DNA of 64,000 nucleotides, taken from Rhizaria sp. SCN 62-66. Lineage: Eukaryota. Positions 17,801 through 47,785 of the stretch are shown piece after piece. The DNA lies in the NCBI GenBank assembly GCA_001724265.1, contig MEDY01000001.1, positions 124,001-188,000 of the forward strand, given 5' to 3'. Position 1 is the first letter of the stretch, and each line of letters starts with the position of its first letter. The position numbers were made by a program, and so were the translations under genes. Under the pieces are notes generated by a model, which had not been told where the DNA came from, did no database searches, and saw only the letters and a list, made by a program, of their open reading frames with translations.

Positions 17801-20800
17801 ATGTTTGAGGGCCTTCTAGAGCAGCTTCTGCTGCGTCTGGTGGGCGAGTACGTCGACGGCCTGAACCGCGACCGCCTGCACGTCAGCGTTTGGCAGGGCG
17901 ACGTCGTGCTCACCGACCTCAAACTCAAGCCCGGTGCGCTCGACTTCCTCGAGCTCCCCATCCGCATTATTGAAGGCAAGCTCTGCCGGCTGACGATCAA
18001 GGTTCCGTGGCACCGCATCCACTCGGAGCCTGTCTGCATCGCCATCGACGGCGTTCACGTGCTCTGCGCGCCCCGCACCGCCGCAGACGCGGTGCAGAGC
18101 CACGTCACGCGCATCCTTCGCCGCCGCGCAGACCTCAGCGCGCGCCTTGCCGCCGTCCTTGCCGCAGCGCCCTCGTCTTCGTCTTCTCCGTCTTCGGCAG
18201 CTGCAACGGCTGCCACTGCGGCCAGCCCAACTGCTCTGAATACGGATACTACCGAGGCTGGTGTGACTGCGCTGACGTACGGCACCATTCTGGGGCCCGC
18301 CGCGCCGCCCGGCTCATCCTCCGCCCCCTCACTATCGGCGTCCTCGAGCTCCAGCGCGGTGGGCGCGGCTGACGCCGACGCCGACGCCGAAGATGTGGCC
18401 GCGTTGTCCGACGCCTCGCTGTCCTGGCCGGAGCGCGTGCTGTGGCACGTAAAGCGCCGATCCGCCGCGCACGGGGCCGACGTGCTGCTGCGCGCGCTTG
18501 CCGCCGCTGCCACCGACGCCGCAGCGGCATGGTCCGCGGCCGCCGGGCGCGGGCTGCCCCAGGGGGCCGGCGCCGAAGCCGCTGCCGCCGCCGCCGCCGC
18601 CGCCGCCGCAGTCGTGCGGACGGCGCGGCAGGCCGGGGCGGGCGGGCAGGGCGCTGGGCTCGGTCTGCGCACCGGTACGCTAAGTTAGGCCGCCATGGGT
18701 GCGCTGGCCGCGATTGAAGCCGCGGTGGGGGATGCAGCGGCGGTCGAGAAGGTACTTGCCACGCTCTGTGGCTGTGACCTCTCTAGCAATAACAGCAACA
18801 ACAACAGTCCTAACGCGAGTAATGGCAGTGAGAGCGCTGCTGCTGGGGCCACAGGCGGCACTAGCGCTGGCGCCGGGACAGGGTTGACTGTAAACACGGA
18901 TGCGCCGATGGTGGCAGTGGTTGGTGGGGCTGCGTCCCCCGCCTCTGCCGCGGCTGCCAATAGCACTGCCACCGCGACGCCCGGCACTGCCGCGGAGGTT
19001 GGGGGAAACAAGGCCGGGTGGCTGCCGTGGCTGCTGTCGCCCATCACCGGCAGCAACAACGTCGATGGCAGCAACAGCAACGGCGGCACGCCGACAGGCT
19101 CCGGCCTCGCTGTGCCCTTATCGTCATCGTCGTCGTCTGTTACCGGTTTTGGCCCCGGCCAGTCGCCGACCAGCGCTGGCGTCGTCGCGGGGCACTCTAA
19201 CAGCAACACGAGCGGCACTGCGACAGGCACGGGCTCCGGCGCTAGTACCGGTAGTTCCGCGAGTGCAAGTGCAGGCAGTGCCAAGGGCATCACGGAGCGG
19301 CTGCTCGAGTCGATCCTGGCGAATCTGCAGGTGACGGTGAGCAACGTGCACGTGCGCTACGAGGCCAACGACACGACGCACGAGCACGCACCCGCCACAG
19401 CCGTCGCAAACAACAACAGGAACAATAACAGCATCAACAACAACGACAACAACAACCACGGTGGCGCGAAGGCTGGCGGTGCATTGCAGGGCAATTTGAC
19501 ATCGTTGCAAGAAGGGCTTGCTTCCGCAGGCAGCGCCCTTGCGTACTACACGAACCTGCGCTCGCGGCCTCAGCGAGACGGCCACGATAGCGGTGGCAGC
19601 GGCAGCGGCGGCGGTGGCGGCGCTGGCGCCGGCGTCAGCGCGGTGGGGGCTGTGGGCCCCCGTGCGTTTGCCTGCGGTGTGTCGCTCCACTCGCTGTCGG
19701 TCACGCCAGTTGCCAAGGCCACCGCGGCAGCGAAACAGGGGGCCGCGAGCGGTGCGAATAGATCGAGGCCTGGATCGGGCAGTATGGTCACGCCGCGCAA
19801 CCTCAACAGCACGGCCGCGAACGCCCATAACAGCAACAGCAACAACTCTGCGTCGGCCTCGTTCCCGTTGCCCGGCACCGGTGCAAGCGCAAGTGCAGGC
19901 CAGGCCGCGCCCACCGCTGCTGCCGCCGACAGTAGCCGCACACTGCTAGAAGCCGCAGCGCGCAAGACCGTGGTGCTCGACGGTTTCTCGCTGTACTGGA
20001 ACTCCGCCACCGACGACGCCATCACGGCCGCGCTGGCTCAGTGGCGCCGTGGGTCATCGGTCGCATCCGCGTCAGCGCCGGGCAAACACGGACGCGCTGC
20101 GCAGCAACTCCAGCAGCAACAACAGCAGCGGGGCGCGCAGTCTCGGTCTGGCGTGACGGCACTCCGCAGCGGCAGCGCTGCAACAGCAGCAGCAGCTGAA
20201 GACGGCGACACTGAGGGTGCGACATTGCTTCAGCCGCCAGTGCCGCGGCTGTCGCCCGAAGCGCTGCACCGCGAGTACGGTGTGGAGCCTCTGCTGTGGC
20301 AGACGCTGGGCGGCAAAGAGCGCGCGCTGCTCATGAGCAAGATCCCCGGACTCCCGCGCCCGCCGCGCAAGGCGAAAACCGCCGCCGCAGCCGCCGCCAC
20401 GGCTGGTGTCGCGGCAAACTCATCACAGGTGACTGCAACAGCGACGGCGGCAAGCTCTGGGCCTGCGAACGCGTATGGCAACGGTGGCCACGCGTTGTCG
20501 CCGCGGCAGCAGCGGCGGCAGCAGCGGCAGCGCCTGGCCGAGGCCTGCGCGGCGGGTCTCCTGCCGCCCGCGCTGCTGGCGCTGGCTGCCCACCAGTCGC
20601 GGCGCCGGTACCGGCACATTCTGCGGCCGCTAACGCTGACGGCCACGGCGAACCTGTGTTCGACCGCGCCCGCAGCCGTGGACATCGCAGTCACGCCGAC
20701 CGACTCGCTCAGCGCGACCGCGAAACGCTTCTCGGACGCGAATCACGGCGCTCACGGCACTCCTGGTACACATGGGGGTACCAGCGGGCCAGCATCGTGG

Positions 20801-23800
20801 ACAACACACACCGCGCTTGCAACGCTTGACCTAGCCCCGCGCGGCGCGGCGCCGCGGCCGGTGCAAGTGCAGCTGACGCTCGCGCTGCCGTCACTACGGC
20901 TGCTGCTGCCGCACTCGGCGCTGCACGACGCCGTGGCCGCGGTCAAAAAGGTCGAGGCCAACGCGGCGCGCGCGGCCGCGGCGGCGTTCAACGCGGAGCT
21001 GCCGCGCCCGCTGTCGTGGCGGCTCTGGCGGCTCGACTACGAGGCGTATTTGCGCCGTCTGCGCTCGTTCGTCGCCGAGAGCGAGTTCACCGCAGCTGTC
21101 ACGGTGCCGGTGCTGCTCGCGCTCACCGACCCCACGCCTGCGTCTGGGAACAGCGGCACTGCCGCGGCGTCTGCTCCCAGCGGAGGCGCTTCGCTGCTCA
21201 CGTCCGCCGCTGCGGCAGCGGCGGCGTCTGCGGCCGCTGCTGCCGCGGCCAACGCTGCGCCAGTGTCGATCCGCGTCGTGCTTTTGCCTCTAGCGCGCGC
21301 ACGGTCTTACACGCCCGCGCCAGCGCCCGCTGCTGAGGTGGCCGACGAAGCGTTGTTCTCATCCCTCACGTCGCTGACGCCACGCGTACCGACACACGTG
21401 ACCACGGCGGCCGCTGTCTCGGTCGGCCGGACAGGGTTGGTCCCGACAGCGGGCGCCACGCCCGCCGCCGTCGCCGCCACTTCCGCCGCAGCAGGGTTCA
21501 ACGAGCTGACGTGGTGCGACGGCATCACCATCCCCGCGTACTACGCGTATCCGCCGCAACTCGCGTCCGCCTCCGCTGCGGTCACAAGCTCAGTGACCGC
21601 TGCGACAACCATCTCTGCGGCGGCGGCGGCGGCTGCTGCTGCAGCGGCGGCGGAGCGACAGGAGTATCTGACGACGGTGCTGCCGCGTCGTCTGTTCGTG
21701 CGGCACCGGTGGCAGCACGCGCTTCTGATGGTGCGCGCCGTCATCCGCCGCTCCGCCACGGCCGCGGGCTCTGTGTCGTTGGCGTCGATGGCGAAGCTTG
21801 ATGCCGCGGTGTCGGTGCAGTCGGTGCAGCAGAGAGCTCAGCACGGCCCGGCGCAGTTCCGCGACTCGGGCGTCAACGCCATCTTCCCCTTCGTACACCC
21901 GAAGTTCACCGCTCTCCTGCACGCGGGCTCCCCCACCGCGAACAACAACAAGCAGAACAACAACAGCAACAAGCCCGTCGCGCCTGCGTCCGCCGCGAAC
22001 GCCGGCCTTCACGGCGCGACAAGCCCCGCCGCGGGCGCGCGCACGCGGGCGCGCGCGGGCAGCCTCGTGCTGCCGCCGTCCGCGCTGGGCGGTGACCCGG
22101 CGTCGCGTCCCCGCGCCAAGCCCTGGTCGTGGCCGCTAATGCGCCGCTTCACCCGGCTGCGGCGGCTGTATCTGTTCCTCCTCCCGCGGCTGCCGCAGCG
22201 CCGCGCGCCGTGGGCGCCCGCCGCGACGCCGGCGCAAGTGCGCGCGGCGCACGCGATCGAGCGCTGCGTACCGGCGCCCGTGCTGGCGCTGTGGCGTGCA
22301 CTGGCGGGCGCGCAGGCCGCGGCGCAATGGTAGCACTGCGCGCGGCTCGTCGAGCTGCAGACGCGCCGCGCCGAGGCCGAAGCGCGCCACGGTGGCTGGT
22401 TCGGGGGATGGTTCGCGGGCGGCGGGAGCACCGGTGGCGCGGTGGCTGGCCAGAGGGCGGCGCAGTCGCAGCAAGGCTCTAGCACTGCGGATGCGATCAC
22501 ACTGTTCAACGCGTCCTCTGGCGAATCGCTCTCTGGGAGCACTGCCGGAGCGGCTCACCCCACCACGGTGCTGTCGCACGCGCCGTCGACAGAACTGCCT
22601 GCGCCGACGCTCATTGACGCAGTCGCGCCCAGTGACGTCAGTGGGACAGCAGCGGCAGCAGAAGCGCCACTGCGGCCGCAGCCGCGGACGTCGTCGAAGC
22701 GGCGCGGAGGCAACGAGCTCAGCCTCGTCATGCTTCGCCCCGCTGTCACCGCCACTGACACCGCTGCGACCGGCAGCACCGGCCCTGTCGTGCCCACGGG
22801 CGCTGCTCTCGCCGCTGCGGGCGCTTCAGCGGCAGTGTCCGCGGACGTTATTGCTGACGTCGCCCGCTGTTTGCCGCACTTGGCGCTGACGGCGGCCGAC
22901 ATCCGGTGCATTTACGCGTTTGCTTGGGCCGAAAAGCACTCCACGGGTCAGCTCCCGCTCTCAATCGGCGCGCGCGCTCGGCCCGGGTCCGCGGGCTCCG
23001 CCTCTGCGTCGTTCCCGCCGCTGGCGCGCCTGGCCAGCCGGCCGCAAAGCACAGCTTCGGCGGCAACCATCGGGGTGCTGCCGCCCGGTCTGTCTGCCGC
23101 TGTGGCCGCGGCCGTGCGCGTGCGCGTACCGACTGTGGCGCTGCGTGTAGACGCCACGTTTGACAACATCGCGATCGTGGTCGTCGCGCCGCAGACGCTG
23201 ATTCCAGCGCACTGGCGGCTGCAGCAGCACGGCGTGCCCAAGAGCGCGCGCGCTCCCCGTGCTCGCGCCGGCACCGCTGCGGGCAAGGGCAAGCGCAGCG
23301 AGAGCGTGACCGTCGCCGCTTCTCGGCTGTCATCGGCTGCGACGCACCCTGCTGACGAGGCCATGTCGTCGTCCCTGCACACCGGCCTGCGCAGACTGCC
23401 GGCGGCCGAGACCGCGGGCCGCGCGCGCGCTGCGACGGGCGTGAGCACGGACTCTGACTTCGCCAGCCGCGCGCGCACGGGCAGTCTGCCGACCGACGAC
23501 CACGCACAGACGGTCTCTGCTAGCGACAGCATCCCGGACGTGCGCGACAGCAGCGACCATGATGACAGCGCGGGCCGCCACAGCGTGCTGGGCTACCGCG
23601 GCGGCTTTGGAGACCACGCCAGCGACGGCGGCAGCGATACAGCGGGTTCCGTGCGTTCGCGCTCATCGCGAACTGACTCGTTTTCGCTGAATGACGATGC
23701 TCCTGCCGACTCGGGCTTCGACTCTGCGTCCGACTCCGACGGTGACGCGAGTTTTGGCGCCACTGCGGCCGCGGCGGGACTGGACCCCGCGCTCCTGACA

Positions 23801-26800
23801 CGCGGCCGCGCTGCTGCGGACGCTGTTCTGCCGCCGCAAGTGCCGCTGCTGCGCCTTGTCATCGGCGGCGCGGTGCGTTTCGACCGCTACTGCTCCGCTG
23901 CGATAATCGCTGCTGCTGGAGAGGCGCCCACGGGCGGTGCGGCCACCGGTGGCTCTGGACTCGCAGGCTCGCCGGCGCCCATTGCCATTGCGACCATGCC
24001 CGCTAGCGCGGGTGGAAGCCCCGGGACCTCCGCTGCAGGATCCGCGAGCTCCGCCACAAACGCGAACGCAACGGCTAATAGTAGCATTGTCTCGATGCCG
24101 ACGCCGCCGCCGTGGTCGTTGCAACTTACGCTCACTGCGCTGCGTGGCATCGAGTACGTGTCCGCCGATCCTCTCGTGCAAACCGACGGTTCTACTACTG
24201 ACAACGCAAACATGGAGCAGGTTAGCAGTGTTGTGGGCCGTGGCTTCCTGTGGCGCCGCGGTCCCGCCGTGTTTGCCCGCGCGCACACACAGCTGGTGCC
24301 CGTGGAAGCAGTCACGGGAGCGCACTTCGATCACCGCGAGCAGGCGCGGCTCGATGCAGAACACTCGACCGCGCGCAAGCGCCGTGGCGGGCTCAGCAGC
24401 GGCGTCAGCTCCGGCGGCACTCTAGCGCTCCCGACATCGATGTCGACGGCGGCACGGAGATCGCTCTCCTGGCTCGACGACGAAGACGAGGATGTCGCCG
24501 TTGCGCCCGGTAGCAGCGGCCCCGTGACGCCACCGCGGCGCACTGCGAGCCCGGTCGTGACGACGGGGCTGCCGCAGAGGTCGCTGTCGCCGCTGCAGGT
24601 GGGCCGCGACCGCAGCGGCAGCGCTGTGTCGACCGTCTCTCGGGGCTCGCAGTCGCAGTTCGTGGACTGTGAGGAAGCCGACGTCGCCGCCGTGCGCGCC
24701 GCGCTCCCCGGCGCCGCCGCCGCCGAGATCGCGCTTGCCGCCGCGCGCCGCGCAGAGGAGCTCGCCATCGCGACCGCTGAGGCGGCCGAGGCGGCCGCTG
24801 CAGCCGAGGCGGCTGCGCGCGCGCAACAGGACGACGACGCCGCTGCTGCGGCCGCGGGCGACGCTGAGGCTGCCACCGCTGCCGCGGCCGCTGCGCGGGA
24901 CGAAGAGGTCGACGCCGAGCTGTCGTCGCTGCCGCTGCCCGCAAACCCGCTATTCAACCTGCCGCCGCTGCCTTTCCCGCTGGCGCGCGAGGGCGACCAC
25001 GAGCCGATCATCAGCGTCTTTGCGTGTTACGGGCCCGCGACGGCTGCGCCGTGGGTGCTGCCCGCCGCGCTTGCCAGTGGCAGCGCTGCGGGAGCCTCCG
25101 CCGGCGACGATGAGACTGCGTTGACTGTGACGCCGCCTCCTGGTGTCGCCGCGGTAGTCATTGAGCCCCTTGCGCTGCTGGTGCCGCCGCGTCTCATCAC
25201 GATGATGCTGCTGTTTGCGCTGAACGCCAACACGGAGACTCCTGCTCCTACGCTCTCCGCGTACGTTCAACAGCCCGCTGCTTCTGCGGCAACATTGCCT
25301 ACATCTAGCGCGTCCGGTAGCAGTGCCATTAGCCCTGCGTCGACTGTTGGCGCAAGCTCTGGACTGTTCCCCAGTCAGTCGTTCTCATCGCGTCTGGCGT
25401 CCCTCTCACCGCTGCTACCGTCGCCCTCCGCCGCTGCTGCTGCTGCCTCGCCGTTTGAAGTCGCCACATCGCCGCCCAAGCCTTGGTTTGCGCACGTGCT
25501 TGTGCTGCGGCCTGCCTTCGTCTGGCCCTGCCACTTGCAGCCTCCCGCGGAGAGCGTCCCTGCCATGATTGCGACGACTGCGCTGACTAAGGCCGCTGCA
25601 GTCAAAAATGCAGTCGAGGGCGCGCTGGTACTTGAAAGCGCCTGGATTGAGGTCAAGCTGGGTCACCCGAGCGCAAAGTCCGCCGCGCGCTCGCCGCAGG
25701 CAAGCAACTTGAATGGCGCAAACGCCGCGTTTGGGCTCGACCCCATCGCTGCGGGCACAGCTGCGAGCGCAGGTCACGGCGTCGCCGGTGACCTCGACGA
25801 TGAAGAGGACGAGGGCACGATCAACGTCGCCGTGTCGCTCGCAGGTGGCCGCATTCTGCTTGCGCACCGGCGCAGGCGGTACCAAGCCATTGATCAGATG
25901 CCCGCCAGTGCGAACTCCAGCCATCGTCTTGGATCTCACCGCGATGGTGGAGATATCGACGATGACGATGACGAGCACGAGCATCACGGTCATGCGCATC
26001 ACGAGCAGGGTCGCCACGGGGCTGCGCCCGCGATTGTGCGCGTGACTGAGCTCATTTCTGGCCGCCGCCAGCGCGCGTTTGCGTCGGGCGCTGTTCCTAC
26101 TTACGTAGCCGCGCACGCGAGTCCGTTCCGGCGTCCGCGCTCTGACAGCAGCATCAGCAGTAGCAGCAGCAGCGCCAGCGCGGTCGCAGCGGCTGCAGCG
26201 GCTGCGTCTATGGCTGACGACGAGACGCTGCCGCGTTGGCTGCTGCCGACGCTGGGGGCCGACTGTGATCTGTATGCAGGCGCCTGCGCCCGCGTTGCAG
26301 TGAGCCTGCCGCTGGGTGTCACTGTCGACAAGAAGGCCGCAGTCGGCGCCACCGTCGCGCGTCTGCGCCACGTGGCTGCGACGACGCTGCGTGATCTATC
26401 CGTCGCTGCTCGCTCTGGCCCGCTCGCACCCGCTCTGAGTCAGGCCGCGCTGCGTGAGCTCTCTTCTGCGCACGCCAGCGTTACTGCTGCGGCGTCCGCT
26501 GCTGCCGCCGAGCCCGACTGCGTTATTGACGGCTCTGTTGGTGCCATCACCGTCACGGTCTCGCCCGCGGTCGTCGCCGCGCTGCACTCCGCCGTGACTA
26601 CGCTCGTGGCTGAGGTGGCCGAGTCAGCGATCATGGTCGAGACTGCGCGCCATAGCGGCGATGACGCTGGCGCCAAGCACGCGGCTCAGCGGGAGGAGGA
26701 CAGCAAGACTGAACAGCAAAAGCCGTCTGCGTCCACTGCCACGAGTCCCACCAGCGCCGCCAAGGACTCGCCTGTGGTGCCCGCGTGTTCGCTCGCTGCG

Positions 26801-29800
26801 AGCATTTCCGTTGCTCTGGCCACGCTGCCGCCGACCGAAGCTGAGATCTTGGCCCTGCTGATGCCGCCGTCACTCGCCGCTCTGCTGCCGCCGGTCGTGC
26901 ACAGTCGCATCACACTCGCTTCGCTCACCGCAGTCATTGTCACCAAGCCGTTCGGAGTTGCTGACAGTATCGCGAATGCGGTTGGCAGCTGGGCCGAGGC
27001 TGCGCGGCTGCGGCTTGCCGGTGTGCGCGTTGCTGCATCGGCTGCCGGTCCGGAGAATCTCGCGTTGCGTGTGACGGCGGCGACTATTGATGGTCGCCGC
27101 ACCGAGACGAGCCCGCTGTACTTCGCGCCCGCGCTGAGCCACACCTACACCGACGGCGTATTCACGCTCACGCGCAATGTGCCCGCAGCCGGCACTGCTC
27201 CTGGTGAGCTTGAGCGCGCCGTCGAGCGCACGATGCCGATGCTTACTGTCACCGCGCCTGTCGCGTCACGCCACGCAGTCACGGCTGACATCTCGCGCGT
27301 ACCGCCCACTCTGCCCTCCACGGCGCCACAGCACCGCTACGCGCGCGCGCACGCCCCGCTGTGGCAGTCGCCGCTGGTGCCGAGTCTGCCGAGCGCGAGC
27401 GTCGCAGCGGGCGCGAGCCGGCGGCCTGAGGTCGAGACGGCGATCGGTGTCGCGCTCGCGCCTCTGTGCGCGCGCTGGTTCCCTGATGTCGTCGCCAGCA
27501 TCAACGCTATCGCGCGTATTGCGATCACGAATCCTGTTTCCGACGCTGCATCAGCTGCACCGGCTGCTCCCACTGTGGTTCCTGTGGGCGCGACGGCAGC
27601 ATCTAACGCTGACGCTGTGACTGCACAGCCCGTCGCAACCGCCTCTGTCGGCGCGCCAGCGCTGCGCCGCCTCATTGCGCTGCGTATCAGCCTGTCGTCC
27701 ACGCGTGTATTCGTGCCCGACTGCTCCGGTCTGCTGGCGCCCACGCAAGGTCCTTGCTCGGCCGCGCCGCCCTCCGTGCTTTTTGAGGCGTGTTTCCCAC
27801 AAGGTGCAGTCACGATCGAGTCGTTTGCTATTGCTCCGGGTGCTGCTGCCACACAAGCTCAACGCACCGCTGCAGTTCAGGCGGCCGGCGCTGCCGCTGC
27901 GTCAGCCACCGTTGCGCAGCCGATGATCGTGGCTGGAATCGACATCATCGCGACGGATCCTACGATTACTGCGCTCATGTTCCCTCCTCAGGTTGATGTT
28001 AGTACCGTCAGTGTTCCAAACTCTGAACCCGAGGCCTCGAAGACAACAGGAACTGCTGAGGCTCCTGCTGTGAAATCGACCGCGAGCGAAAGCAAATCTC
28101 TGGAGCCGACTCGTGTGCCCCTCATCATCCCTCTGACGACGCTCTACAGTCTTTTGTCACTGCCTCCACCGTCATCGTCTCCCCCAAGCAGCAATACGAG
28201 CATCAACGTGAGCAGGCTTGCTGTGCGCATCCGGCCTCAGGCCGAGCTTGCCGCGGCCGCCGCGTTTGGGCTGCCGCGCGTTAACGCATTCCAGCTGTTT
28301 CCGCCACCGGCCGCGCCTGCAGGCAAGTCTGCCGACGCTAATTCGGCGCCCTCCGAGTCTCAGGTGACGATTGACGTCGCTAATGCCGGTTTTACGCACG
28401 CGCAGCCGCTCGTATTGTCGCTTGTGGACGCAATCATCAGCCACTTGCTGCCGCCGCTGCTCGCGCCCGAGACGTACATCGCCGGCCTTGCGGGAGCTCC
28501 TGCACCAGCGGCTAGCCCGGCCTCCGCTCCAGTTCAGGCTGCCTCAGATTCCTCTATCAATGCCGCTGAGCTCGACAATGCCGCGGATGACGGCGACGAT
28601 ATGACCGGTGCGATGAGGCGCATGCTCCTGTCTGCGCTGTCACGCTACCGTGTGTCGCCCGCACCGTTGTATGCTCCCACAATTGCCGTCCGCGCGCGCG
28701 CTCTTACGGCGCTTTTGCCGCAGCGCACGAGCGGCTTGTTCGTGCGCATGCGCAAGCTCTGGCTCGCCGCAGATGCTAACAATTGCGCTACCAGCTCTGC
28801 TGCCCCAACGCATGTGCAGCCGCTTTGGCCGCGTCCGCTGACTGCAACAGCGCTTGCGCGTGGTCTAGTCGAGTTGTGCTTGCCTTTGTCGTTCTCGCTG
28901 CAGTCGCCCGCACCCACGCATCCGTACGTCAGCGGCGCCAACGCCCGCGCAAGCGCGCCGGTGGTCGGCTCGATGGCCCTGGCTGCGCTGGCGCCCGCGC
29001 TCAAGGCCGGGTTGATGCACGCTCATCTCACGCGTGCAGACGTGACGGTGGCGCCAGTGCGCCACACCTGGGTTGGTGCCGCACCCGCCTCTGCGCCCGC
29101 GAATGCGCCCGCGAATGCGACTAATGGCGGTGATGAGCCACGGTTTGAGGCGCAGGGCTCGGCGGCCGGTGTGGACCCGACCAAGCTGCTGCAGTCGACT
29201 GTGGAGCGCACGCGGCTTACCTTCCGTGCCGCTCCCTTCATGTTGCGCACTCTGACGTCCTACGCTGCGCACCCTGGCGACGGCAAACACGTCGCGAAGC
29301 CAACTTCCACTGCGGATGACGAGGATGACGGCGGCGTGACGTTTCCCAGTGGCGTGACAGGCAACCTGATGTTCGTGCCCATTGCGCTCATTGGCGACAT
29401 CACGCCAACGCGCGCCGGTGGCTCGCAATCTTTCGGACTGATGGGCGCCGACGCGGGCGCCGGTGCGGGCGACACTGTGACGGGCGTCCGCGCGCCGTGC
29501 GTGCCTCGACAGGCGACCGTGACAAACGTCGACGCCGGCGCGCTGCCGCCGATGATTCCCGCGCTCGCGCCTGACGATCCCGTGATGGTGGCGTCGTACA
29601 ACGAGCTCATCTTGCAGCAACATGCGATGCAGCCGCAGTCGGCCGACAGAGACGCAGCCAAGGAGCGTTCTAGCAACGATGATGCGAGCGCTGACTTCAT
29701 GAGCCGCTGGCATCGCGGGAGCGAGCTCTGGGCGCCGCTCTGCATTGACATCTGTGTTCCGCGCGTGCGCGGTGTCCTAACTTCTGTGCTGTACATGCGC

Positions 29801-35800: not shown

Positions 35801-37849
35801 CCCGCTGCTGCAGCTGCTGCCTAGAACTCGGGCCCGCAAGCCATGCGCCGCGGCACGATTGTGCGCGCGCTGCCGGAATCCTCGGTGACTCTGCACTGCC
35901 ACGCCATCTACGCGCACGAGATTGCCCGCGCCTACGCACCGCCAACGCTCGCATCTGCCTCTGCCAAGGCGGCCGCGCCGCAACAGCCGCGCGCGCCGTC
36001 GGCCGCGACGGGCAGCGGCGGCGCTGTGGAGCTGGGCACGCTGTCGTACGCCACCGCCGTCGTCGTCGCCATGCCGCCGGTGCCGTGCGCGCTGCGCGCA
36101 GAGACAGCCGCTGCTGCTGCTGCAGTGGGCGCCTCGGACCGTGACAGCGATGTCGGTGGCGTGTCTCTGGCTGCGGGCACTGGCGCCAACGCCGCCGTGC
36201 TGGCCGAGCTCTTCCGCCCGCTCGACGCGCTCTTCATCGAGAGCAGCTCCGCAGTCGCGAGTGCGCGTGCGAATGCAGCAGGATCGAAAGCCGCGAGCAC
36301 CGCGCTGACAGCGGCCCGTGCGGCGCTGTCGCCGCTGCGGGTGCACGTGTCGTTCCCCGCGCTGACCGAGGCGCCGGTGCCCGCGACGCTGCGGCACGCG
36401 CTCGTCACGCTCCCGCAGTGGGCCTCGTGCTCGCTCCTGCTTCCCGTCCCTACCTCCGCCTCTTCCGTGGCCTCGGCCTCTGTGTTGGCGTCCGCAGCTG
36501 CGAAGCAGTCGGCCATGAGCGGAGGGTTGCGGCACGTGTTCATGGCGTCGCCGCAGCCGCTGCTGACCGACGCGCTGACCAGCACGGGCCCGGCGCTGCT
36601 GGCGGGGCTTGTCGCGGGCTCGTCGGCGGCTCCCGGCACCGCTGCCGTGGGCGGCCACGCGGCCACCGTGTCGTCGGTCCTCGCGCTGCCCGGCGCCGCG
36701 ACGCACGCTCAGGCTGGTGCCGGCGCGGGTTCTGGTGTGGCGGCCGTGGCAGGCGCCGGCGTGGCCGCTGGCCGGCTGCCGTCCGTCGCCGTGACCGCCA
36801 GCGCGTCCCTCATCCACACGCTTATCGCACCCACAGTCATCTCGCGCGTTTTGGCCGCCGTGCCGGTCATCGTCGCCGCCATCGCGCCCCTCGCCCAGCC
36901 CCCTGCGGACGCTACGGTGTCTGTTGAGACTGTGACCGAGACTGTGGTGGCGCAAAGTGGCGAGCCGCTGCGCGTGGGACAGATCGAGCTCATGGGATGG
37001 TCGGTCGCACTGGGATTCGCGCAGGGAATCGACAACGAGGTCGACATCACCACAGACGACGACAGCGGCGCCAACAGTAGTGCCCCTACAGTCGAAGCTG
37101 ATAAGCAGAACTCGAGTAGCTCGCTGTCAGGCGCTGCAGCAACATCGTCTGCCGCTGCCTCTGTCTCTGTATCTGTCACTGCGGCGACGGCGAATAACAG
37201 CGGCGTGCGCAACGAAGACCTCGGACTGGGTCTGGGCACCGGGCTTGCGCTGTCCGACGTGCTCGACCTGGCGCCCAGCAACCCGCTGGTGCAGCTGCTG
37301 CTGCGGCTGCTGTCTCAATGGGGCGCGCTCGTCGTCGTCGCCGGCCCACACAGGGCCACGCCCGCGCTCGCCACCGCCGCCACCGCCGCGGCTGCGCGCG
37401 CCGCAGACGCCGCCACGCGGGTCGCCACGGGCGCGCTCGCCGCTGCGGCCGACGCCGCGGGCGACGCGGACGCGGAGGCAGAGGCAGAGGCCGCCGCGGC
37501 CGCTGCGGTCGTCGCTGCCGCTGCCGAGGCTGGCGCCGCTGCGGCGGGCGGCCACGGAGGCCACGGCACCACACACGCGGGCTCCGTCGTCAGCGGCGCT
37601 GCAGCTGCTGGCGCGAACGCGAGTGCGAGTGTGCGTCGCGCCGGAGGCGTCGTGTACGTTGTGCCAGCAGGCGACTCCGCGGGCGCTGTGGCGGCGCTCG
37701 TAGGGCCTCTCGTCGAGCAATTGAAGCACACCGTGCTGGCGCAGGCCGTGGGCGCGGGCGCCAGCGCGTCGGCCGAGGGTGCCGCCGCGGTGGTCGGCGC
37801 GGGGCTGCAGGCTGTGTGGGTCGGCATCGCCCGCACCTTCACATCGTGA
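17801..37849 (+). CDS. VPS13: Giant VPS13-family bridge-like lipid transfer protein, 6682 aa if four in-frame TAG codons are read as sense
   Basis: Chorein-N at the start (MFEGLLEQLLLRLVGEYVDGL...VWQGDVVL.DLKLK...LELPI.I.EG..LTIKVPW). VPS13 motifs continue in order in the same frame: ILANLQVTVSNVHVRYE (~19310), LDGFSLYWN, WSW...RRLY, GWFGGWF (~22395), WEPLL (~32210) and GNDT...VRQ...PGTVVEFAWEAP (~34650-34840). All five track ORFs share one frame. Ends in TGA before AT-rich DNA. Confidence 0.88.
18686..18688 (+). other. In-frame TAG no. 1 in VPS13 (TLS*AAMG)
   Basis: CTA AGT TAG GCC GCC ATG; the frame continues into the 18695 ORF. Confidence 0.75.
22331..22333 (+). other. In-frame TAG no. 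2 in VPS13 (AAQW*HCARL)
   Basis: CAA TGG TAG CAC TGC; lies between the conserved IE...LWRALA helix and the GWFGGWF motif. Confidence 0.88.
33761..33763 (+). other. In-frame TAG no. 3 in VPS13 (LVG*SPQY)
   Basis: GTG GGT TAG TCG CCG; 20 open codons lead in frame to the 33824 ORF, which carries VAB-like motifs. Confidence 0.8.
35822..35824 (+). other. In-frame TAG no. 4 in VPS13 (AAAA*NSGPQ)
   Basis: GCT GCC TAG AAC TCG; 6 codons lead in frame to the 35843 ORF, with no AT-rich intergenic DNA. Confidence 0.8.
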
Positions 37850-40744: not shown

Positions 40745-41837
40745 GTGCACTCTGAGTGCTCTGTCTGACTGAACTCTTCCTTCTTGTATGCATCCGTGCG
40801 TGCGCCGGAGGGATGACGCATCGACTTCTGTCCGCTGTGGGCGCTCTTGGGCGGTGCACGCGCGTTTAAAAATCTCGCGCACGTGTCTCTCCGTCCTTGT
40901 TGAGTGCATTTCAGCGCAAATGCTCGCATCACAGCGATGTGTCTGACATCTGTTGGGCGCAGCGCTTCTGAATGCTGTCTTCAATAAGAGATCTTCTGTG
41001 TTTGTTGTTCTGTGGCGTTTTTATTAAGGTTGCACGCAAATAAAGTTCTCTTTTACTAGTAACCTTTATCTCACACACTTGTTGCGGTCGACATTCATGT
41101 TCCAGCGCATTACACTGGGAGATCATCACCTCGGCCGTTCCCGGAGCGTTTGTGGTGAGACAGACAAAACGTCATTAAGCTGGGTATAGTAGGCCGTGTT
41201 AAAAACGTTTAAGTACCTCGCTTTAAAGGAATATTTTAGCGTAGTTCCGAAAAACTGGGCGCTCACTTTAATTGAAATATGCGTCCGATGACGTTGTTAA
41301 TGCGGTACATGTATGATAGCTCTCATATATGATGTAATTGCGGAGGAATTTCGAAGTAAAGATGGAAAGAAGGCGGTTCAGGAGGGTGCGGAAGGTGCGG
41401 ATTAAATCGTCGCAAAAAACTGTGTATAGATATGCCTAACTAGCAACACTAAGAAAGTACCAAATAAATACGGCCATATATTAACCATATTCTTAAGAAT
41501 AAACAATCAAACCGATGGATATGTAGCCCACTTCGAGGTCTCAGTGCTCTCACTCGACCATTCGCGAACCACATCCGAGACCTCAACAAAACACACGTAT
41601 GCCGTTTTACCATCACAAAATAGAACTATACAATGAACGGAATCATACATAAACACGGACTTCACCCTTAATTCATGAGGTGAACCCCCATGATTCTAGC
41701 AGTTTGTTGTCACAATGCGTCAAATGTCAGCAATCACGAGTTGTAACCGACAGCGAGGTTCGACTGGGCGCACCTCTCTGCACGCCCAGGGCCATATTTC
41801 GCGCCCCTACCACGCTCACAGCGGTCTGTAGCCACGC

Positions 41838-44800
41838 TCAGTGCGCGGCCTCGCCATGTGCGCCGCTCTGCAGCGCAACCATACCCGCGAAGACGCCGTC
41901 GGGCTTGGCGCGGAGTTCCTCTGGCGGACCCATCTCGACCACTTTGCCGGCGTCAAGCACGAGGATGACGTCGCAGTCGGCGATCGTATCGAGCCGGTGC
42001 GCAATGGTGACCACGGTACGCTCCTTGAACGCCGTCCGCAGCACGCGCTGGATCACCTGGTCCGTCTGCGGGTCGACGTTGGCCGTAGCTTCGTCGACGA
42101 AGAGCACGCGCGAAGGCTGCAGCAGCGCGCGTGCGATGCACAGCAGCTGGCCCTGGCCCGCGGAGAGGTTGCCGCCAGACTCTGACATCGGCGACGCAAG
42201 CCCCATTGGTTGGGACAAGAAGTGCTGCTTGAGCTGGACCTTTTCGAGCGCGGCCCACAGCTCCGCGTCCGCGCACACCGAGAAGGGGTCGAGGTTGTAG
42301 CGCACTGTGCCGGAGAAGATGACCGGGTTCTGCGGGATGATGGCGAGCTGCGAGCGCAGGTCCGCGAGGCCGATGCTGTTGATGTCGACGCCATCAATGC
42401 ACACGGAGCCGGCCTGGATGCCGTGCAGGCGGAACAGCACCGAGAAAAGCGACGACTTGCCGGCGCCAGTGCGGCCGCAGACGCCCACCTTCTGCCGCGG
42501 CAGCAGCGTGAAAGTGAGGCCGCGCAGCACGGGCGGCAGCACGCCCGGCTTGTACGACATGAAGACGTCGTTCACGTCCACGCGCCCCGCCTCGGGCCAC
42601 GACGCCGGCGGCGTGTACGTCAGCCGACTGCCAGCGCTACCGACCGCGGCGGCGGCGGCGTGGACGGCCTCGGCGGCGGCGACAGAGGCCGCCACCTCGG
42701 TGTGCTTGCTCATATTCGAGTTGCCGGCGTCGTCATCGTGGTGCGCAATGGCGGCGCGCGGCAGCGGTGCGGTGCCGCGGCGCACGCCCTCACTGGGCAG
42801 GCGCGCGTACTCGAGCACGCGCTCCGCAGATGTCATCTGTAGAGTGAGAGTAAGAGTCAACGCATTAAGTGGAAGAAATACACAATATTTAGAAGTAATA
42901 TACACATTTTAAGAAAAGAATGCAGAATTGACGCATGGCATCTCAGTGTGAGATTTAAAGGTGAACATTAGTCAAGTAAAATGTCGTGTTTTAGTTTTCG
43001 TACCTGATTCTCGACCTCGGTGCTCTGGCGCGTCATCCACTGGAACTGCGAGGCGACCGTGGTGACGTACGACAGCGCGAGACCGACCGCCGTGGGCGAC
43101 ATGCCGATGCCGCCGCCAGAGCCGCGGATGCCGACGCAAAAGAGCGCGGTGCCGAGCGTGAGAACGACGGACATGAGGTCGAGCCGGTAGCCAAGCCAGC
43201 GCGAAGTGTAGAAGAAGCCGTTGAGGACCTTGGAGTTGGCGTCGACGAGCGAGTGGAACGCCTGCTGGAAGGGCCGCTGCATGGCGTAGGCGCGGAGCAC
43301 GGTGAGCCCCCCGCCGGAGATGGAGCTGGAGAAGAGCGCGAGCACGGGGGACCGCGAGGTGCCTTCGAGGCGCTTGATCTCGCGCGAGGACACGATGTAC
43401 ACGGCACGCATCCAGAAGTAGACCGGGATGATGAGCGCGATGAGGATCAGGATGTACGGCGCGATGATGCCGACGACGATGATGGTGCTGAGCAGCGACA
43501 GCAAGAGCTGCGCGAAGTCGAACAACGTACTTGGCAGCAACTCATCCAGCGTCGCCTGGTCCTTGGAGAAACGGTTCAACACGCGGCCCAGCGGGTTCTC
43601 GTGGAAAAAGCTCATCGGCGAGTAGAGAATGCCAGCGAACATCTTGGCGTGCGCGGCCGCGGCGGAGCGCAGCACGGCGTTGGTGAACCAGATCGAGCGC
43701 ACAAAGCCGAACGCGACGGCGACGACCGAGAGCACGATGAAGAGCGTGCGGTAGCTCGAGCCCGGCTGCGCGGCGGCGGGCTGCGCGGTCCAGTCGGAGA
43801 GGAAAAAGTCGCCCGCGACCTTGGCGGCGGGCGCGATGAGCATCGCCAGCACGACGCAGATGCCCGAGAAGACGTTGACGCAGCGCGACGAGCCCTGTTT
43901 CTTGACCGATACTCTGCCGCGGCCCGCGGCGTTGGCGTTACTGGCGTTGTCGCCCGAAAGGCCGAAGAAGTAGTCCGTGAAGACGGTGGAGCTGATGCTG
44001 CCCTCGGAGGACTTCTCCAGCGCAAAGCCCGACATCGCCTTCTTGTCCTTGTCCTTATCACCCTCAGCGGCGGCGCCTGCGGCGCTAGGGTCGGTGACCG
44101 TGGTGGTGATGCTGGTGACCGTGGGCACTTCGACGACCTCGACCTCGCCCTCGTCGTCCTTGATGCCCTCGTTGCTGACGTCGGCGTATGGAATGAGGCA
44201 GTTGACGGAGCCGGCGCGGCCGTCGTCGTCGTCCTCGTCGTCCTCATCTTCGGTCACGTCCTCGACCGCAACCGCCGCGACGCCTGCAATGCCTCCGACA
44301 GCGGCGTCAGTCTTCTTCTTCTCAGCGCTCTTCGCAGACGCAGCGTCGTTCTTGGTCGGGAGGTTGCCGTGCGACTTGAGGTATGTCACTGTGTGGAACG
44401 GGTTACCGTCAAGCTGCACAGCGTCCACGTCCACAGCGCCCTCGCCCGCACCACGCAGCGCACCGCCATCAGCAGCGCCCAGATGACCGGCGCCATGACC
44501 GGTAGTATTTGCGCTGACGGCGTGGGAGCTGAGCTTGCGCGTGAGGCGGCCCTGTTGCGCGTCGCGCGCGGCGAGGGCGGCGGCCTTGAGTTCGGGGAAG
44601 CGGCCCTGGAAGGCAACACGACCCTTATGCATCACCACGATCACGTCCGCGGCCGGCAGCACGTTGGCCTGGTGCGAGACGACGACGCGCGTCTTGCCGT
44701 TGAGGAAGCCGTTGGGGCCCAGGCAGTTGGCAAAGATGTGCTGCGCGACGGCGGGGTCGACGGCGGCGAGCACGTCGTCGAGCACCACGACGTCGCTGTC

Positions 44801-46923
44801 GACGGCGTAGCACGCGCGCGCCAGTGCCACGCGCGCGCGCTGGCCGCCCGAGAGCGTGGCGCCGCGCTCGCCGATGACCGTGTCGTCGCCCTGCGGCAGC
44901 AGCGTGAGGTCGCGGGTGAGCGCGCACGCGTGGATGACGCGGTCGTAGCGCTCGGCGTCGAAGCGCGAGCCAAAGAGAATGTTGTCGCGCACAGACGCCG
45001 CGAAGATCCACGGCTTTTGCGACGCGTACGCGATCTTGCCGCTGATGAACGGCGATTCAGACAGGCCTCTGGCTCTGGACTGGTGCTGCGCAGTCGCCGT
45101 GGCGCCGCTGCTGCTGCTGTTGCTGCCGTTGATGTTGAAGGAGCGCGCGTCGGCGCCGACGACGGGCATCTCGCCCAGCAGCGCGTGCAGCAGCGACGAC
45201 TTGTACGCGCCGACCGTGCCCGCGATCACCGCGAGCGCGCCCGGTGTGATGGTGATGTCGACTTCGCGCAGACCGCCCACCACGGACGCCGCCGCCACCG
45301 CGCCCGCGCCAGTGCCCACATTGGAGACGGCGCGAGCGTCGTCGACGGGGAACGCGGAGAGCACGCGCGTGAGCTCGGGCGCGCCACGGACGCCGTGCGG
45401 GTGCGCCTCGGCCTGCGCCAGCGCCGCTGCAGTGGACGCGCCGTCGCCCGCACCGCCGCCGCGACCGGTGGTCAGACCGACAGAGCGACCGCCGGTCAGA
45501 GCGCGGCCCTGGAGAGAGGGCAGGCGCACCATGTGGCCGCGCTGGAAACCAGCGACGCCACCATTGCCGCTGCTGCTGTTGTTGTTGCCGGTGACGAGCG
45601 CGGAGGACGAGGAAGACACGGAGAGCGAGTTGGAGCGCGTGAGCGTGAGCGACGGGCGACGGCGGTCGCGGCGGCTGAACTTCTTGGCGGCCGCGGGGTC
45701 CACCTCCTCGGGCCACGCGAACGACAGACCGGGGATCCGCACGCTGCCGCGCGGCAAGGCCTCAACCGTACTGACAATCCCTGAGTCAGCGCCGGCGGCC
45801 GCGACATCAGCAGCACTGCTGTTGTTGCCTGCATTGTCGCTGTTGTTGTTGTTATCGGAGTTGTTACTGGAGCCCTTCGCGGGCTTGTACACTGACGCGT
45901 GGTCGAAAGTTAAGCCGCCGTTAAGGAGGTCCTCCTCGAGCAAGAGGTAGTTGCCCATGCGGCGCGTGGCAATCATGACCTCGAAAGCCTTCTCGGCGGC
46001 CACAGGCACGGCGGTGAGCAGCGGGAAGGCAACTTGGCCGAAGAAGGACACGGTGGTGAAGACGCGGTCCGCAGTGAGCGTGTTGCCGAGCCCTTCGTAG
46101 ACCGTGAAGGTGACGACGGAGACGACGATGAAGACGCCGAAGTAGCACGCAAGATTAATCGCCTTGAGCAGCGTGTTTGTGGCGATCGAGTCGATCTCGG
46201 CGCGGCGCTCCTTGTCCACGCGCGCCTCGAGCGGCTCCTCCCAGTTGTACATCTTGATGATCTCGGTGCCCATGAGGATCTCGCCCACGGCCTTGACGCG
46301 GGCGTCGCTGTGCACCACTGTGCGCGAGCGGATGCGGCCAAAAAAGCACGAAAACGACGACTGGAGTACAAAGAAGAACATGAGGACGCCGAACCCGGCG
46401 AAGAAGGCGACGCCAACCTGGAGATAGATGAGGTAGAAGATCACCGCGGCCTCGAGCGGCGCGTTCCACAGGTAATGCAAGAACGGCCCCGCGTCGTCGA
46501 ACTTGTACGGGTCGTTGCTGACGAGGTTGACCGCCTGGCCCGTTGAAGTTTGCGCGAAGGCCGTGGCGTGCAGCGAGAGGGACTTGGCGTAGATGAGCGA
46601 CGTGGTGGCCACACGCGTCTGCATGCCGTAGCGCGAACCGGCAAAAAAGTACTGGTGGTGCATTGTGACCTGGACGAACTGGCAGAAAACCATGAGCAAC
46701 GCCCACATGAATCCCTTCCAGTGCGGGTCCGAGCCCGTGACGTCGCGCAGAAACAGCAGGAGCTCTTTGAGGAAGAGGATCATGCCGATCTTGCACGCGC
46801 TGTAGAGGAGAAGGTGCGCCGACATGGTCATGTAGCGTGGGCCAAACGCGCGCGCAACGGCCTTGAGGAAGACGGGCCGCTCGAGCTCCACGTCCTAGCT
46901 GATCGTCACAGTCTCCACGCCGG

Positions 46924-46955
<32 letters not shown>

Positions 46956-47785
46956 GAGGTGAGCCCAGCAGCGCCGGTGTCCGCGTCGGCCGCGCTACTG
47001 CAAGTGATGTTGTTGCCAATAGTGGCGCCGGCAATGTTCGTGGTGAACGCGAGGTCCACGACGGCGGAGACAGTCGCGCGGGCTCCGTTGACCGTCTGCG
47101 TCACAGGAGGCAAACCGACGCCAGCGAAGAGGTCGTCGAACGCGGCCAGCGTCGCGCCGGGGGGCGCGTCCACAGGGTCCGCAGTCTCAGCGTCCGCGGC
47201 GTCAGCGTCGGCGTCGGGGCTGCGGCTGGGACTGGAGGTGTTGTTGGTGGACGATGTGCGTGCGAGCTCGATTGCGAGGGCCACGCCTCGAGACGACGCG
47301 GACACGGACGCGGGGGAGCCGAACGATGAGCCACCAGCAGCAGCGCCGGCGGCGCCAAGCGGGGCGCCGTGGGCAACAAGGCCGACCTCCTCGGCCTGGC
47401 GGCGGCGCACGCGCGCGCAGGCGGCGGCCACGGCGGCGCGGTTGCGCGCCGCGACGGCGGCCTTCTCGGCGCGCCAGGTGTGGTAGAGCGCGGACCCGTT
47501 GGCCAGCGCAGAGTCCGCGGGCGGCAGCGGGTTGAGGTCCTCCACCGTCAGCGTGTGGTCGCGGCCGCGACGGAGAATCTCGAAGGGGAAGAACCAGAAA
47601 AGCCACGAGAGCAGGGGCGCAGTGTCGAAGTTGACGTTGATGTCATCAGGCACAGAGGCGGTGGAGCCGTCGAGGGTACTGCCTCCGGTCTGAGAAAACA
47701 ACGAGGAGCCATCAGCGTTCGCCACAGAAGTGGCACGAGCGCGAGGCGCGGCGGATGCGGGGGCCGGATCCCCGCTTGATGACAT
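41838..47785 (-). CDS. ABCC (MRP/ABCC4-like, no TMD0) full transporter, 1926 aa with one in-frame TAG; exons 47785-43004 and 42836-41838
   Basis: Lasso motif APLLSWLFW...GRDHTLTVEDL, TMD1, NBD1 (LSGGQRARVALARA, VVLDD), TMD2 (PMSFFHENPLGRVLNRFSKD, SREIKRLE..RSP) and NBD2 (GRTGAGKSS, IIPQNP, LSAGQ, VDEATANVD, IAHRL). Phase-0 intron GTACGA...CAG (43003-42837) gives VENQ|MTSAER. Stop is TGA. Confidence 0.92.
46895..46897 (-). other. In-frame TAG in the ABCC gene (VTIS*DVELERP)
   Basis: ATC AGC TAG GAC GTG GAG; it joins the lasso-bearing ORF to the TMD1 ORF in the same frame. Confidence 0.85.

What the first reader, a model, noticed from the sequence alone, without database searches (positions are those of the whole stretch)
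17801..47785. Candidate non-standard nuclear genetic code: UAG is sense while UAA and UGA remain stops
Seen: five in-frame interruptions in two unrelated, otherwise intact genes (four in VPS13, one in ABCC), on opposite strands. All five are TAG, with no frameshift and no internal TAA or TGA, and no gene end in the window uses TAG. Established: nuclear UAA and UAG are nearly always reassigned together. Split meanings are known from only a few lineages, such as Iotanema spirale (UAG=Gln), an uncultured sainouroid rhizarian (UAG=Leu) and some phyllopharyngean ciliates. Inference: this organism is one of those lineages, a relative, or a new independent case. It should have a CUA-anticodon tRNA and an eRF1 that ignores UAG.
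Basis: partly seen in the sequence, partly recalled or inferred. Interest (0 to 1): 0.95.

Follow-up and report, generated by a model that had tools for sequence, protein, structure and literature searches.

The report
Probable UAG sense codon, wastewater protist
Two large, otherwise intact genes of an uncultured GC-rich wastewater eukaryote carry five in-frame TAG codons, so the organism probably reads TAG as an amino acid (perhaps glutamate) while still stopping at TAA and TGA, but five codons on one contig cannot prove it.

Summary
A 6682-codon VPS13-like frame (17801-37849, +) holds four in-frame TAG. An ABCC transporter (47785-41838, -, one AT-rich intron) holds one. There is no in-frame TAA, TGA or frameshift in 16,083 codons examined, and 0 of 12 gene ends use TAG (8 TAA, 4 TGA).

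Translation most likely continues across the TAGs:
- The same frame scores best of six on both sides of all five.
- The VPS13_N profile continues across TAG1.
- The ORF upstream of the ABCC TAG is 56% identical to the N-terminus of an uninterrupted relative.
- Introns here are AT-rich and unlike the TAG surroundings.
- No shared recoding signal follows the TAGs.

Independently assembled DNA contigs reproduce TAG3-5. A roughly 98%-identical strain reads GAG (Glu) at TAG3, and 2 of the 4 nearest ABCC relatives have Glu at the ABCC site.

Two cautions apply. Under a single-step mutation model, 68% of possible nonsense changes give TAG, so "all five are TAG" is weak on its own (P=0.145). No whole genome, tRNA(CUA), eRF1 or RNA cover of a TAG could be obtained.

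Verdict: UAG read as sense about 0.7, probably a new lineage; the amino acid is undetermined, with Glu favoured.

The parts
17801..37849 (+). VPS13-like (bridge-like lipid transfer protein) gene: 6682 codons, ATG to TGA, with four in-frame TAG
   Evidence: VPS13_N profile 1-93 and 140-174, two stretches, 120.7 bits when read through TAG1. Codon-usage segments lie in one frame from 17783 to 36961. The segment between TAG3 and TAG4 has VPS13_VAB clusters as nearest predicted structures, but TM is at most 0.31, so this is a lead only.
18686..18688 (+). TAG1 (codon 296), inside a low-complexity insertion between two parts of the VPS13_N profile
   Evidence: The ORF ending here (P0047) is recorded on 6 contigs.
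22331..22333 (+). TAG2 (codon 1511)
   Evidence: Frame 0 scores best of six on both flanks. No Pfam match on either side.
33761..33763 (+). TAG3 (codon 5321). A roughly 98%-identical strain (run X4) reads GAG here
   Evidence: table 3 (33761 T>G in X4; X2 and X3 contigs identical to the window).
35822..35824 (+). TAG4 (codon 6008)
   Evidence: Covered without any difference by the X2/X3 contig 33074-39299 (table 8).
43004..47785 (-). ABCC transporter exon 1 (1594 codons: N-terminal region, TMD1, NBD1, TMD2), with one in-frame TAG
46895..46897 (-). TAG5 (ABCC codon 297), six codons before the conserved start of TMD1. It aligns to E, E, G and A in the four nearest relatives
   Evidence: Covered without difference by the X2/X3 contig 44018-46916.
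42837..43003 (-). ABCC intron, 167 nt, GTACGA...ACAG, AT-rich
   Evidence: sequence. One search shows the relatives run ...VENQ|MTSAER... without a break.
41838..42836 (-). ABCC exon 2 (NBD2), ends TGA at the same place as the relatives' C-termini
48343..61125 (-). Control gene: 4260-codon TLDc-domain protein with no in-frame stop of any kind, ends TAA
9448..9633 (+). Second intron (LMBR1 gene), 186 nt, GTACGC...TCAG, AT-rich. It shows what introns look like in this organism

Best explanation
The window is nuclear DNA of an uncultured, GC-rich, intron-poor eukaryote from bioreactor or wastewater communities. Its ribosomes most likely read UAG as an amino acid, while UAA and UGA end translation.

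Shown:
- Five TAG codons sit inside two long coding frames that are otherwise free of stops and frameshifts.
- Coding continues in the same frame on both sides of each TAG.
- No gene in the window ends in TAG.

Inferred:
- A tRNA with anticodon CUA decodes UAG. This is the only anticodon that reads UAG but not UAA.
- eRF1 recognises UAG poorly.
- The codon is rare (about 0.03% of codons) and turns over quickly, because a close strain has GAG at one site.
- The encoded residue is most likely glutamate (about 55-60% given that UAG is sense), with glutamine next.
For: (1) In-frame counts are TAG 5, TGA 0, TAA 0 in 16,083 codons. Off-frame stops occur at about 2% of codons, and TGA is six times commoner than TAG.

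(2) A codon-usage model trained on other genes ranks frame 0 best of six on 10 of 10 flanks of the five TAGs.

(3) ABCC: the 296-codon ORF before TAG5 is 56% identical over 116 aa (E=2e-40) to residues 8-123 of P0004, a relative with one uninterrupted 1782-aa frame. The part after TAG5 aligns with the rest of that protein.

(4) VPS13_N profile positions 1-93 lie before TAG1 and 140-174 after it. Read through, the score rises from 104.2 to 120.7 bits.

(5) 0 of 12 gene ends are TAG. Three ends are checked against a domain or homologue end: GMP_PDE_delta 155/155, TLDc 168/170, and the ABCC C-terminus.

(6) The two introns identified are AT-rich, 167 and 186 nt, and start GTACG. The TAG surroundings are GC-rich coding sequence.

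(7) Logan contigs of runs X2 and X3 reproduce TAG3, TAG4 and TAG5 with 0 differences and no second allele.

(8) No shared motif follows the TAGs, and only 1 of 5 downstream 100-nt stretches folds better than shuffles (z=-2.17).

(9) For Glu: X4 reads GAG at TAG3, and the ABCC site is E, E, G, A in the four nearest relatives.
Against: - There are only five codons in two genes on one contig.
- Under a single-step mutation model, 68% of nonsense outcomes from these codons are TAG, so five of five has P=0.145.
- Four of the five sites lie in a gene whose C-terminal part is weakly constrained. Of the 22 strain differences listed there, 14 are non-synonymous, 7 are synonymous and 1 is TAG/GAG. Pfam finds nothing in this gene after residue about 530. 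A young pseudogene is therefore not excluded.
- The GAG in strain X4 can equally be read as the intact allele of a nonsense mutation.
- X2 and X3 give identical contigs and may be one data set. X1 may be the source sample.
- There is no tRNA in the window.
- No RNA contig listed covers a TAG or the intron junction.
- At the ABCC site, more distant relatives show no conservation: among 22 alignments, E 4, A 4, and 13 other residues or a gap.
- 0 of 12 TAG ends would occur about 3% of the time if TAG ended a quarter of genes. That usage figure is recalled and was not measured here.
Confidence: 0.7

Rival explanations
1. The organism uses the standard code and the TAGs are real nonsense alleles. 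The VPS13-like gene is a young pseudogene or dispensable in the 2015-2017 bioreactor strain, and the ABCC gene has a separate nonsense mutation. It may be rescued by re-initiation at the ATG at 46831.
For: - TAG is the expected outcome of 68% of single-step nonsense changes in these GC3-rich genes.
- A close strain has GAG at TAG3.
- The VPS13-like C-terminal region shows 14 non-synonymous against 7 synonymous listed differences.
- A 1287-aa ATG ORF begins just after TAG5.
Against: - There is no frameshift and no TAA or TGA in 6682 + 1594 codons. My estimate is that about 190 substitutions accompany four nonsense hits. At the roughly 3% indel rate seen against X4 (2 indels against 59 substitutions), several frameshifts would be expected.
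- The coding signal persists after every TAG.
- The ORF upstream of TAG5 is conserved, and ABCC differences are 3 of 3 synonymous, so that gene is under selection.
- No TAG-free allele is seen in X2 or X3.
- Two of about 13 genes hit independently in a haploid-looking consensus is improbable.
- 0 of 12 gene ends are TAG.
Confidence: 0.17
2. UAG is still formally a stop but is leaky or ambiguous. It is read through by near-cognate tRNAs or a weak eRF1, without a dedicated tRNA(CUA), so full-length proteins are made at reduced yield.
For: - TAG is very rare in frame (5 in 16,083 codons).
- TAG is concentrated in a huge gene that is probably weakly expressed and weakly constrained.
- Ambiguous stop/sense codes exist in other protists (abstracts listed).
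Against: - Four successive read-through events in one mRNA would leave very little full-length VPS13 unless read-through is efficient. Efficient read-through amounts to reassignment.
- No TAG terminates any of 12 genes.
- There is no shared read-through context or downstream structure.
Confidence: 0.08
3. The TAGs are not in the mature message or not in the organism. They could be assembly or sequencing errors, RNA editing, or unusual in-frame introns.
For: - The source is a metagenome assembly at low depth (about 5-7 for the long contigs).
- GAG to TAG is a G>T change, the type produced by oxidative damage (recalled).
- TAG1 is preceded by GGTACGC, which resembles the 5' splice sites of the two introns.
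Against: - Logan's independent assembly reproduces TAG3-5 exactly, and the ORF ending at TAG1 is recorded on 6 contigs.
- Introns here are AT-rich and 167-186 nt, while the TAG flanks are GC-rich and score as coding.
- Removing the 14 nt from the GT of GGTACGC to the end of TAG1 would shift the frame into a TGA (read from the sequence).
- Editing could not be tested.
Confidence: 0.05

Closest known systems
Rhizarian exLh (Sainouroidea), nuclear UAG=Leu with UAA/UGA as stops (Panek et al. 2017, PMC5304391; passages read)
   Same: Only UAG appears in frame. The bona fide ends use the other stop codons. It is a non-ciliate protist, and tRNA(CUA) is the predicted decoder.
   Different: exLh has 384 in-frame UAG in 71 genes, against 5 in about 16,000 codons here. 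The residue there is Leu, whereas the two hints here point to Glu. No phylogenetic link could be tested, because no rRNA or marker gene lies in the window.
Iotanema spirale (Fornicata), UAG=Gln with UAA as stop (same paper, passages read)
   Same: UAG-only reassignment, inferred from in-frame codons aligned to homologues.
   Different: Gln rather than the Glu hinted here. It is an anaerobic fornicate. Its composition was not compared.
Phyllopharyngean ciliates, UAG=Leu (TARA clade) or Gln (Hartmannula, Trochilia), UAA the preferred stop (McGowan et al. 2024, PMC11687900; abstract and outline read)
   Same: UAG is reassigned alone. The cases were found by mining metagenome-derived assemblies, and suppressor tRNA(CUA) genes were found in two genomes.
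   Different: Those are ciliates with widespread UAG usage. This window has GC-rich exons, roughly 170-190-nt AT-rich introns, and TAA and TGA both used as stops. None of that is ciliate-like (the comparison with ciliate genome style is recalled).
Oligohymenophorean ciliate PL0344 (UAG=Glu, UAA=Lys; PMC10553269, search listing and start of abstract only; the assignments are recalled) and Blastocrithidia nonstop (UAR=Glu, UGA=Trp; PMC12153298, start of abstract)
   Same: They are precedents for UAG read as glutamate by a tRNA-Glu derivative.
   Different: In both, UAA is also reassigned. Here TAA ends 8 of 12 genes.

Membership tests
Nuclear UAG-only stop-to-sense reassignment | In-frame UAG inside otherwise intact, homologous coding sequence, with no in-frame UAA or UGA | tested here: met
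   5 TAG, 0 TAA and 0 TGA in 16,083 codons. Homology holds on both sides for TAG1 and TAG5. The coding frame is kept on 10 of 10 flanks. The sample is small: two genes.
Nuclear UAG-only stop-to-sense reassignment | UAG absent from genuine gene ends; UAA and/or UGA terminate | tested here: met
   0 of 12 ends are TAG, 8 TAA, 4 TGA. Only three ends are checked against a domain or homologue end.
Nuclear UAG-only stop-to-sense reassignment | One consistent amino acid at UAG positions aligned to conserved residues | tested here: inconclusive
   GAG in strain X4 at TAG3. E, E, G, A in the four nearest ABCC relatives, but no conservation in more distant ones. The other three sites have no alignable relatives.
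Nuclear UAG-only stop-to-sense reassignment | Cognate tRNA with anticodon CUA | not testable with these tools
   0 tRNA genes and 0 Rfam matches in the window. No genome is held.
Nuclear UAG-only stop-to-sense reassignment | eRF1 altered in stop-codon recognition | not testable with these tools
   No eRF1 lies in the window. No other contig of the organism could be fetched.
Nuclear UAG-only stop-to-sense reassignment | UAG present in mature mRNA and translated | tested here: inconclusive
   The polyA RNA run X5 holds parts of both genes, but none of the contigs listed covers a TAG or the intron junction.
VPS13 / bridge-like lipid transfer proteins | Chorein-type N-terminus followed by the VPS13_N repeating region | tested here: met
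   PF12624 profile 1-93 and 140-174, 120.7 bits against a cut-off of 80.
VPS13 / bridge-like lipid transfer proteins | VAB and C-terminal (ATG2_C-like) domains | tested here: not met
   No Pfam family in 22334-37846, even at E up to 10. The Atlas's nearest structures to 33824-35821 are VPS13_VAB clusters, but TM is at most 0.31 on a model of pLDDT 0.43. This is a lead only.
ABCC (MRP-type) transporters | TMD-NBD-TMD-NBD architecture with ABCC-type relatives | tested here: met
   ABC_membrane twice and ABC_tran in exon 1, ABC_tran in exon 2. Relatives are named ABCC4-like. Full-length alignment.

The most novel reading that the evidence does not exclude
An uncultured, GC-rich, non-ciliate wastewater protist uses a nuclear code not yet described: UAG=glutamate, with both UAA and UGA kept as stops. 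It is caught at an early or low-usage stage, with about 1% of Glu codons being TAG and TAG/GAG polymorphic between strains about 2% apart. That would allow the birth and spread of a reassigned stop codon to be followed within a species.
Probability: 0.38. Interest if true: 0.85.

Novelty: new member of a known kind. Interest (0 to 1): 0.66.

Why it matters
Nuclear codes in which UAG and UAA have different meanings are known from only a handful of lineages (PMC5304391 passages; PMC11687900 abstract).

A further, independent case would show that UAG-only capture is a recurrent route of code evolution. This one sits in a GC-rich genome, where TAG is one mutational step from many abundant codons.

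Two further features would matter if they hold up. The residue may be Glu, and the codon may be polymorphic between strains. The organism would then offer a rare view of a reassignment while the new codon is still scarce. It could also be sampled repeatedly from bioreactors.

There is a practical consequence as well. Standard gene callers split its genes: the databases already hold the pieces as separate proteins (P0047, P0052, P0003).

Tried and rejected
- **Whole genome:** none is held for this window.
- **Other contigs of the organism or its strains:**
It returned only 2 distant ABC loci, L001 and L002, and not even the JGI relatives P0004-6.
  - The genome contigs and viral-contig scans found nothing.
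- **Strain or relative fragments spanning the TAGs:**
  - The search with VPS13 residues 200-1600 (shorter proteins) returned only the window's own 295-aa ORF. It was swamped by low-complexity words.
  - The search with ABCC residues 286-600 (shorter proteins) gave 4 distant fragments, none informative at the site.
- **Representative search:** 9487 hits, 150 listed. Only four are close enough to align the TAG5 site meaningfully.
- **Pfam around TAG2-4:** nothing found. My recalled resemblance of the TAG2 region to the VPS13 'WSW...GGWF' stretch is therefore unsupported, and I do not use it.
- **RNA:** the X5 contigs listed do not cover any TAG or the intron junction. Parts without cover say nothing.
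- **In-frame introns:** rejected on composition.
- **Recoding signal or structure downstream of the TAGs:** none.
- **Taxonomy:**
  - Named ABCC hits are at most 46% identical and come from scattered groups.
  - The Atlas hits for the nucleoside hydrolase are uninformative.
  - The window has no rRNA.
- **Pyrrolysine-type decoding:** considered and set aside. It is unknown in eukaryotes and cannot be tested here.
- **Giant virus origin:** considered after and rejected on gene content (VPS13, ABCC, LMBR1, PDE6-delta, cathepsin C, spliceosomal introns).
- **Literature:** no report of UAG=Glu with UAA as stop, or of a code variant in an activated-sludge protist, appeared in the listings. Supplements were not seen.
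Full report
**What the window is.** The 64-kb window has 58-73% G+C in 4-kb steps. It carries eukaryotic genes:
- a VPS13-like gene and an ABCC transporter;
- a 4260-codon TLDc protein;
- an inosine-uridine nucleoside hydrolase;
- LMBR1, a VTT-domain protein and a laminin-G-like protein;
- SRR1, GMP-PDE-delta and the start of a cathepsin C.

Two spliceosomal introns could be placed exactly. One is in ABCC (43003..42837, 167 nt) and one in LMBR1 (9448..9633, 186 nt). Both start GTACG, end AG, and are AT-rich inside GC-rich exons.

The same DNA is held by bioreactor, wastewater and activated-sludge runs from five studies. The source is therefore an uncultured sludge eukaryote. No rRNA, tRNA or other Rfam family lies in the window. 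The best named ABCC relatives are at most 46% identical and taxonomically scattered. I could not place the organism.

**The observation.** With TAG read as X, one frame runs from the ATG at 17801 to the TGA at 37849. It has 6682 codons with TAG at codons 296, 1511, 5321 and 6008. ABCC exon 1 (47785..43004, minus strand) has one TAG at codon 297.

In ten gene segments (16,083 codons) the in-frame counts are TAG 5, TGA 0, TAA 0. The two other sense-strand frames hold 453 TGA, 76 TAG and 73 TAA. All twelve gene ends I could define use TAA (8) or TGA (4). Three ends are anchored:
- GMP_PDE_delta reaches profile position 155/155 one residue before its TAA.
- TLDc reaches 168/170 five residues before its TAA.
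- ABCC ends where its relatives end.

ABCC has an intron and ends at 41838. Only the first 530 or so residues of the large gene are demonstrably VPS13.

**Does translation continue across the TAGs?**
High-scoring segments in that single frame occur from 17783 to 36961.
- TAG1 lies between VPS13_N profile positions 1-93 and 140-174. Reading through raises the score from 104.2 to 120.7 bits, with two stretches.
- For ABCC, the 296-codon ORF before TAG5 matches residues 8-123 of P0004 (56% identity, E=2e-40). The sequence after TAG5 matches the rest of that protein. P0004, P0005 and P0006 are uninterrupted 1535-1782-aa proteins from metagenomes.
- The TAG neighbourhoods are GC-rich and nothing like the two introns.
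- A GGTACGC just before TAG1 resembles a 5' splice site, but excising the 14 nt from its GT to the end of the TAG would break the frame.
- No motif is shared downstream of the TAGs, and only one of five downstream stretches folds better than shuffles. A local recoding element is therefore unlikely.

**Are the TAGs real?** Logan contigs of runs X2 and X3 cover 33074-39299 and 44018-46916 with no difference from the window and no second allele. This confirms TAG3, TAG4 and TAG5 in an assembly made independently of the window's. X2 and X3 give identical contigs and may be one data set, and X1 may be the source sample. This is therefore a check on assembly, not on biology. The ORF that ends at TAG1 is recorded on six contigs.

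**The strain comparison.** Run X4 comes from another study and is about 2% divergent. It reads G at 33761, so it has GAG (Glu) where the window has TAG3.

Of the 22 differences listed in the VPS13-like gene, 14 are non-synonymous, 7 are synonymous and one is this TAG/GAG. The three listed in ABCC are all synonymous. Only 40 of 63 difference rows were shown, so the state of TAG4 and TAG5 in X4 is unknown. TAG1 and TAG2 were outside the laid stretch.

The polyA RNA run X5 holds pieces of both genes. None of the pieces listed covers a TAG or the intron junction, so the RNA test remains open.

By off-frame composition that has P=3e-5. The fairer null is mutational. These genes are rich in GAG, CAG, AAG, TCG, TGG, TTG and TAC. 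With the transition bias seen against X4, 68% of single-step nonsense changes give TAG, so five of five has P=0.145.

What does discriminate is the absence of any TAA, TGA or frameshift. My estimate is that four neutral nonsense hits in 20 kb imply about 190 substitutions. At the indel rate seen against X4 (2 indels against 59 substitutions), several frameshifts would be expected.

Further points favour decoding:
- The coding signal persists after each TAG.
- The ABCC N-terminus is conserved and under selection.
- No TAG-free allele appears in X2 or X3.
- No TAG is used as a terminator.

Against this stands the weak constraint on the VPS13-like C-terminal half, which keeps a young-pseudogene reading alive. 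I put UAG-as-sense at about 0.7, nonsense alleles under the standard code at about 0.17, leaky or ambiguous UAG at about 0.08, and error, editing or other causes at about 0.05.

**Which amino acid?** There are two hints. The first is GAG in X4 at TAG3. The second is the ABCC site, where the four nearest relatives have E, E, G and A.

More distant ABCCs are unconserved there: among 22 alignments, E 4, A 4, and 13 others or a gap. The region around TAG3 tolerates many replacements. Glu is therefore favoured only modestly. My estimate, given that UAG is sense, is 55-60% for Glu, with Gln next.

**Comparison with what is known.** UAG-only nuclear reassignments are reported in these lineages:
- the rhizarian exLh (Leu) and Iotanema spirale (Gln) (PMC5304391, passages read);
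- phyllopharyngean ciliates (Leu or Gln) (PMC11687900, abstract and outline read).

UAG=Glu is known only where UAA is also reassigned. The examples are Blastocrithidia (start of abstract of PMC12153298) and the ciliate PL0344 (assignments recalled; PMC10553269 seen only as a listing).

This case shares the defining pattern but differs in three ways. TAG usage is very low: 5 in about 16,000 codons, against 384 in 71 genes in exLh. Both TAA and TGA are in regular use as stops. The residue is possibly Glu.

The listings of three literature searches showed no report of such a code or of a code variant in a sludge protist. Supplements were closed and were not seen.

**Verdict.** It is most likely a new lineage with UAG read as sense, filed as a new member of a known kind. 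If Glu and the strain polymorphism hold up, it would be a new variant. The decisive work is genome-wide and is feasible from the public runs that hold this organism.

Noticed in passing
window 43003-42837 (-) and 9448-9633 (+): Both introns that could be placed start GTACG, end AG, are 167 and 186 nt long and about 30-40% G+C, inside exons of 60-75% G+C. The ABCC relatives P0004-6 lack the ABCC intron.
   Followed up: partly
window 18675-18688 (+): TAG1 is the end of the string GTACGCTAAGTTAG. Its first six bases match the 5' splice site of the LMBR1 intron. It is 14 nt long, so splicing it out would break the frame. It is probably coincidence, but could be an intron remnant.
   Followed up: partly
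window 33569-34501 (+): Against strain X4 this stretch shows 19 differences in 933 nt. Of the 16 listed, 10 are non-synonymous, 5 are synonymous and 1 is TAG/GAG. Seven lie in the 160 nt just before TAG3. The three ABCC differences listed are all synonymous. The VPS13-like C-terminal part evolves almost neutrally.
   Followed up: partly
window 48343-61125 (-): A 4260-codon, intron-free gene whose only recognisable part is a C-terminal TLDc domain (residues 4093-4255). It has no in-frame stop of any kind.
   Followed up: no
window 12413-12865 (+): A GMP-PDE-delta (PDE6D/UNC119-type) gene. From recalled knowledge, this family is tied to ciliary cargo transport, which would suggest a flagellated or ciliated organism.
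   Followed up: no
window 40085-41020 (-) versus 40064-40744 (+): Codon usage and GC3 (0.74 against 0.49) indicate that the real gene here is on the + strand (40145-40744), not the longer minus-strand ORF. GC-rich DNA gives many long spurious antisense ORFs throughout the window, up to about 600 codons.
   Followed up: partly
window 40107 and 38075: Strain X4 lacks 15 nt at 40107 and has one extra T behind 38075. These are the only two indels listed against 59 substitutions, and neither lies within the two genes that carry the TAGs.
   Followed up: no
window 46917-46963 and 32267-32325: Short-read contigs of all runs break at these repeats. The first is the (CAG)n run coding the poly-Q just upstream of TAG5, which limits strain comparison at that site.
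   Followed up: no
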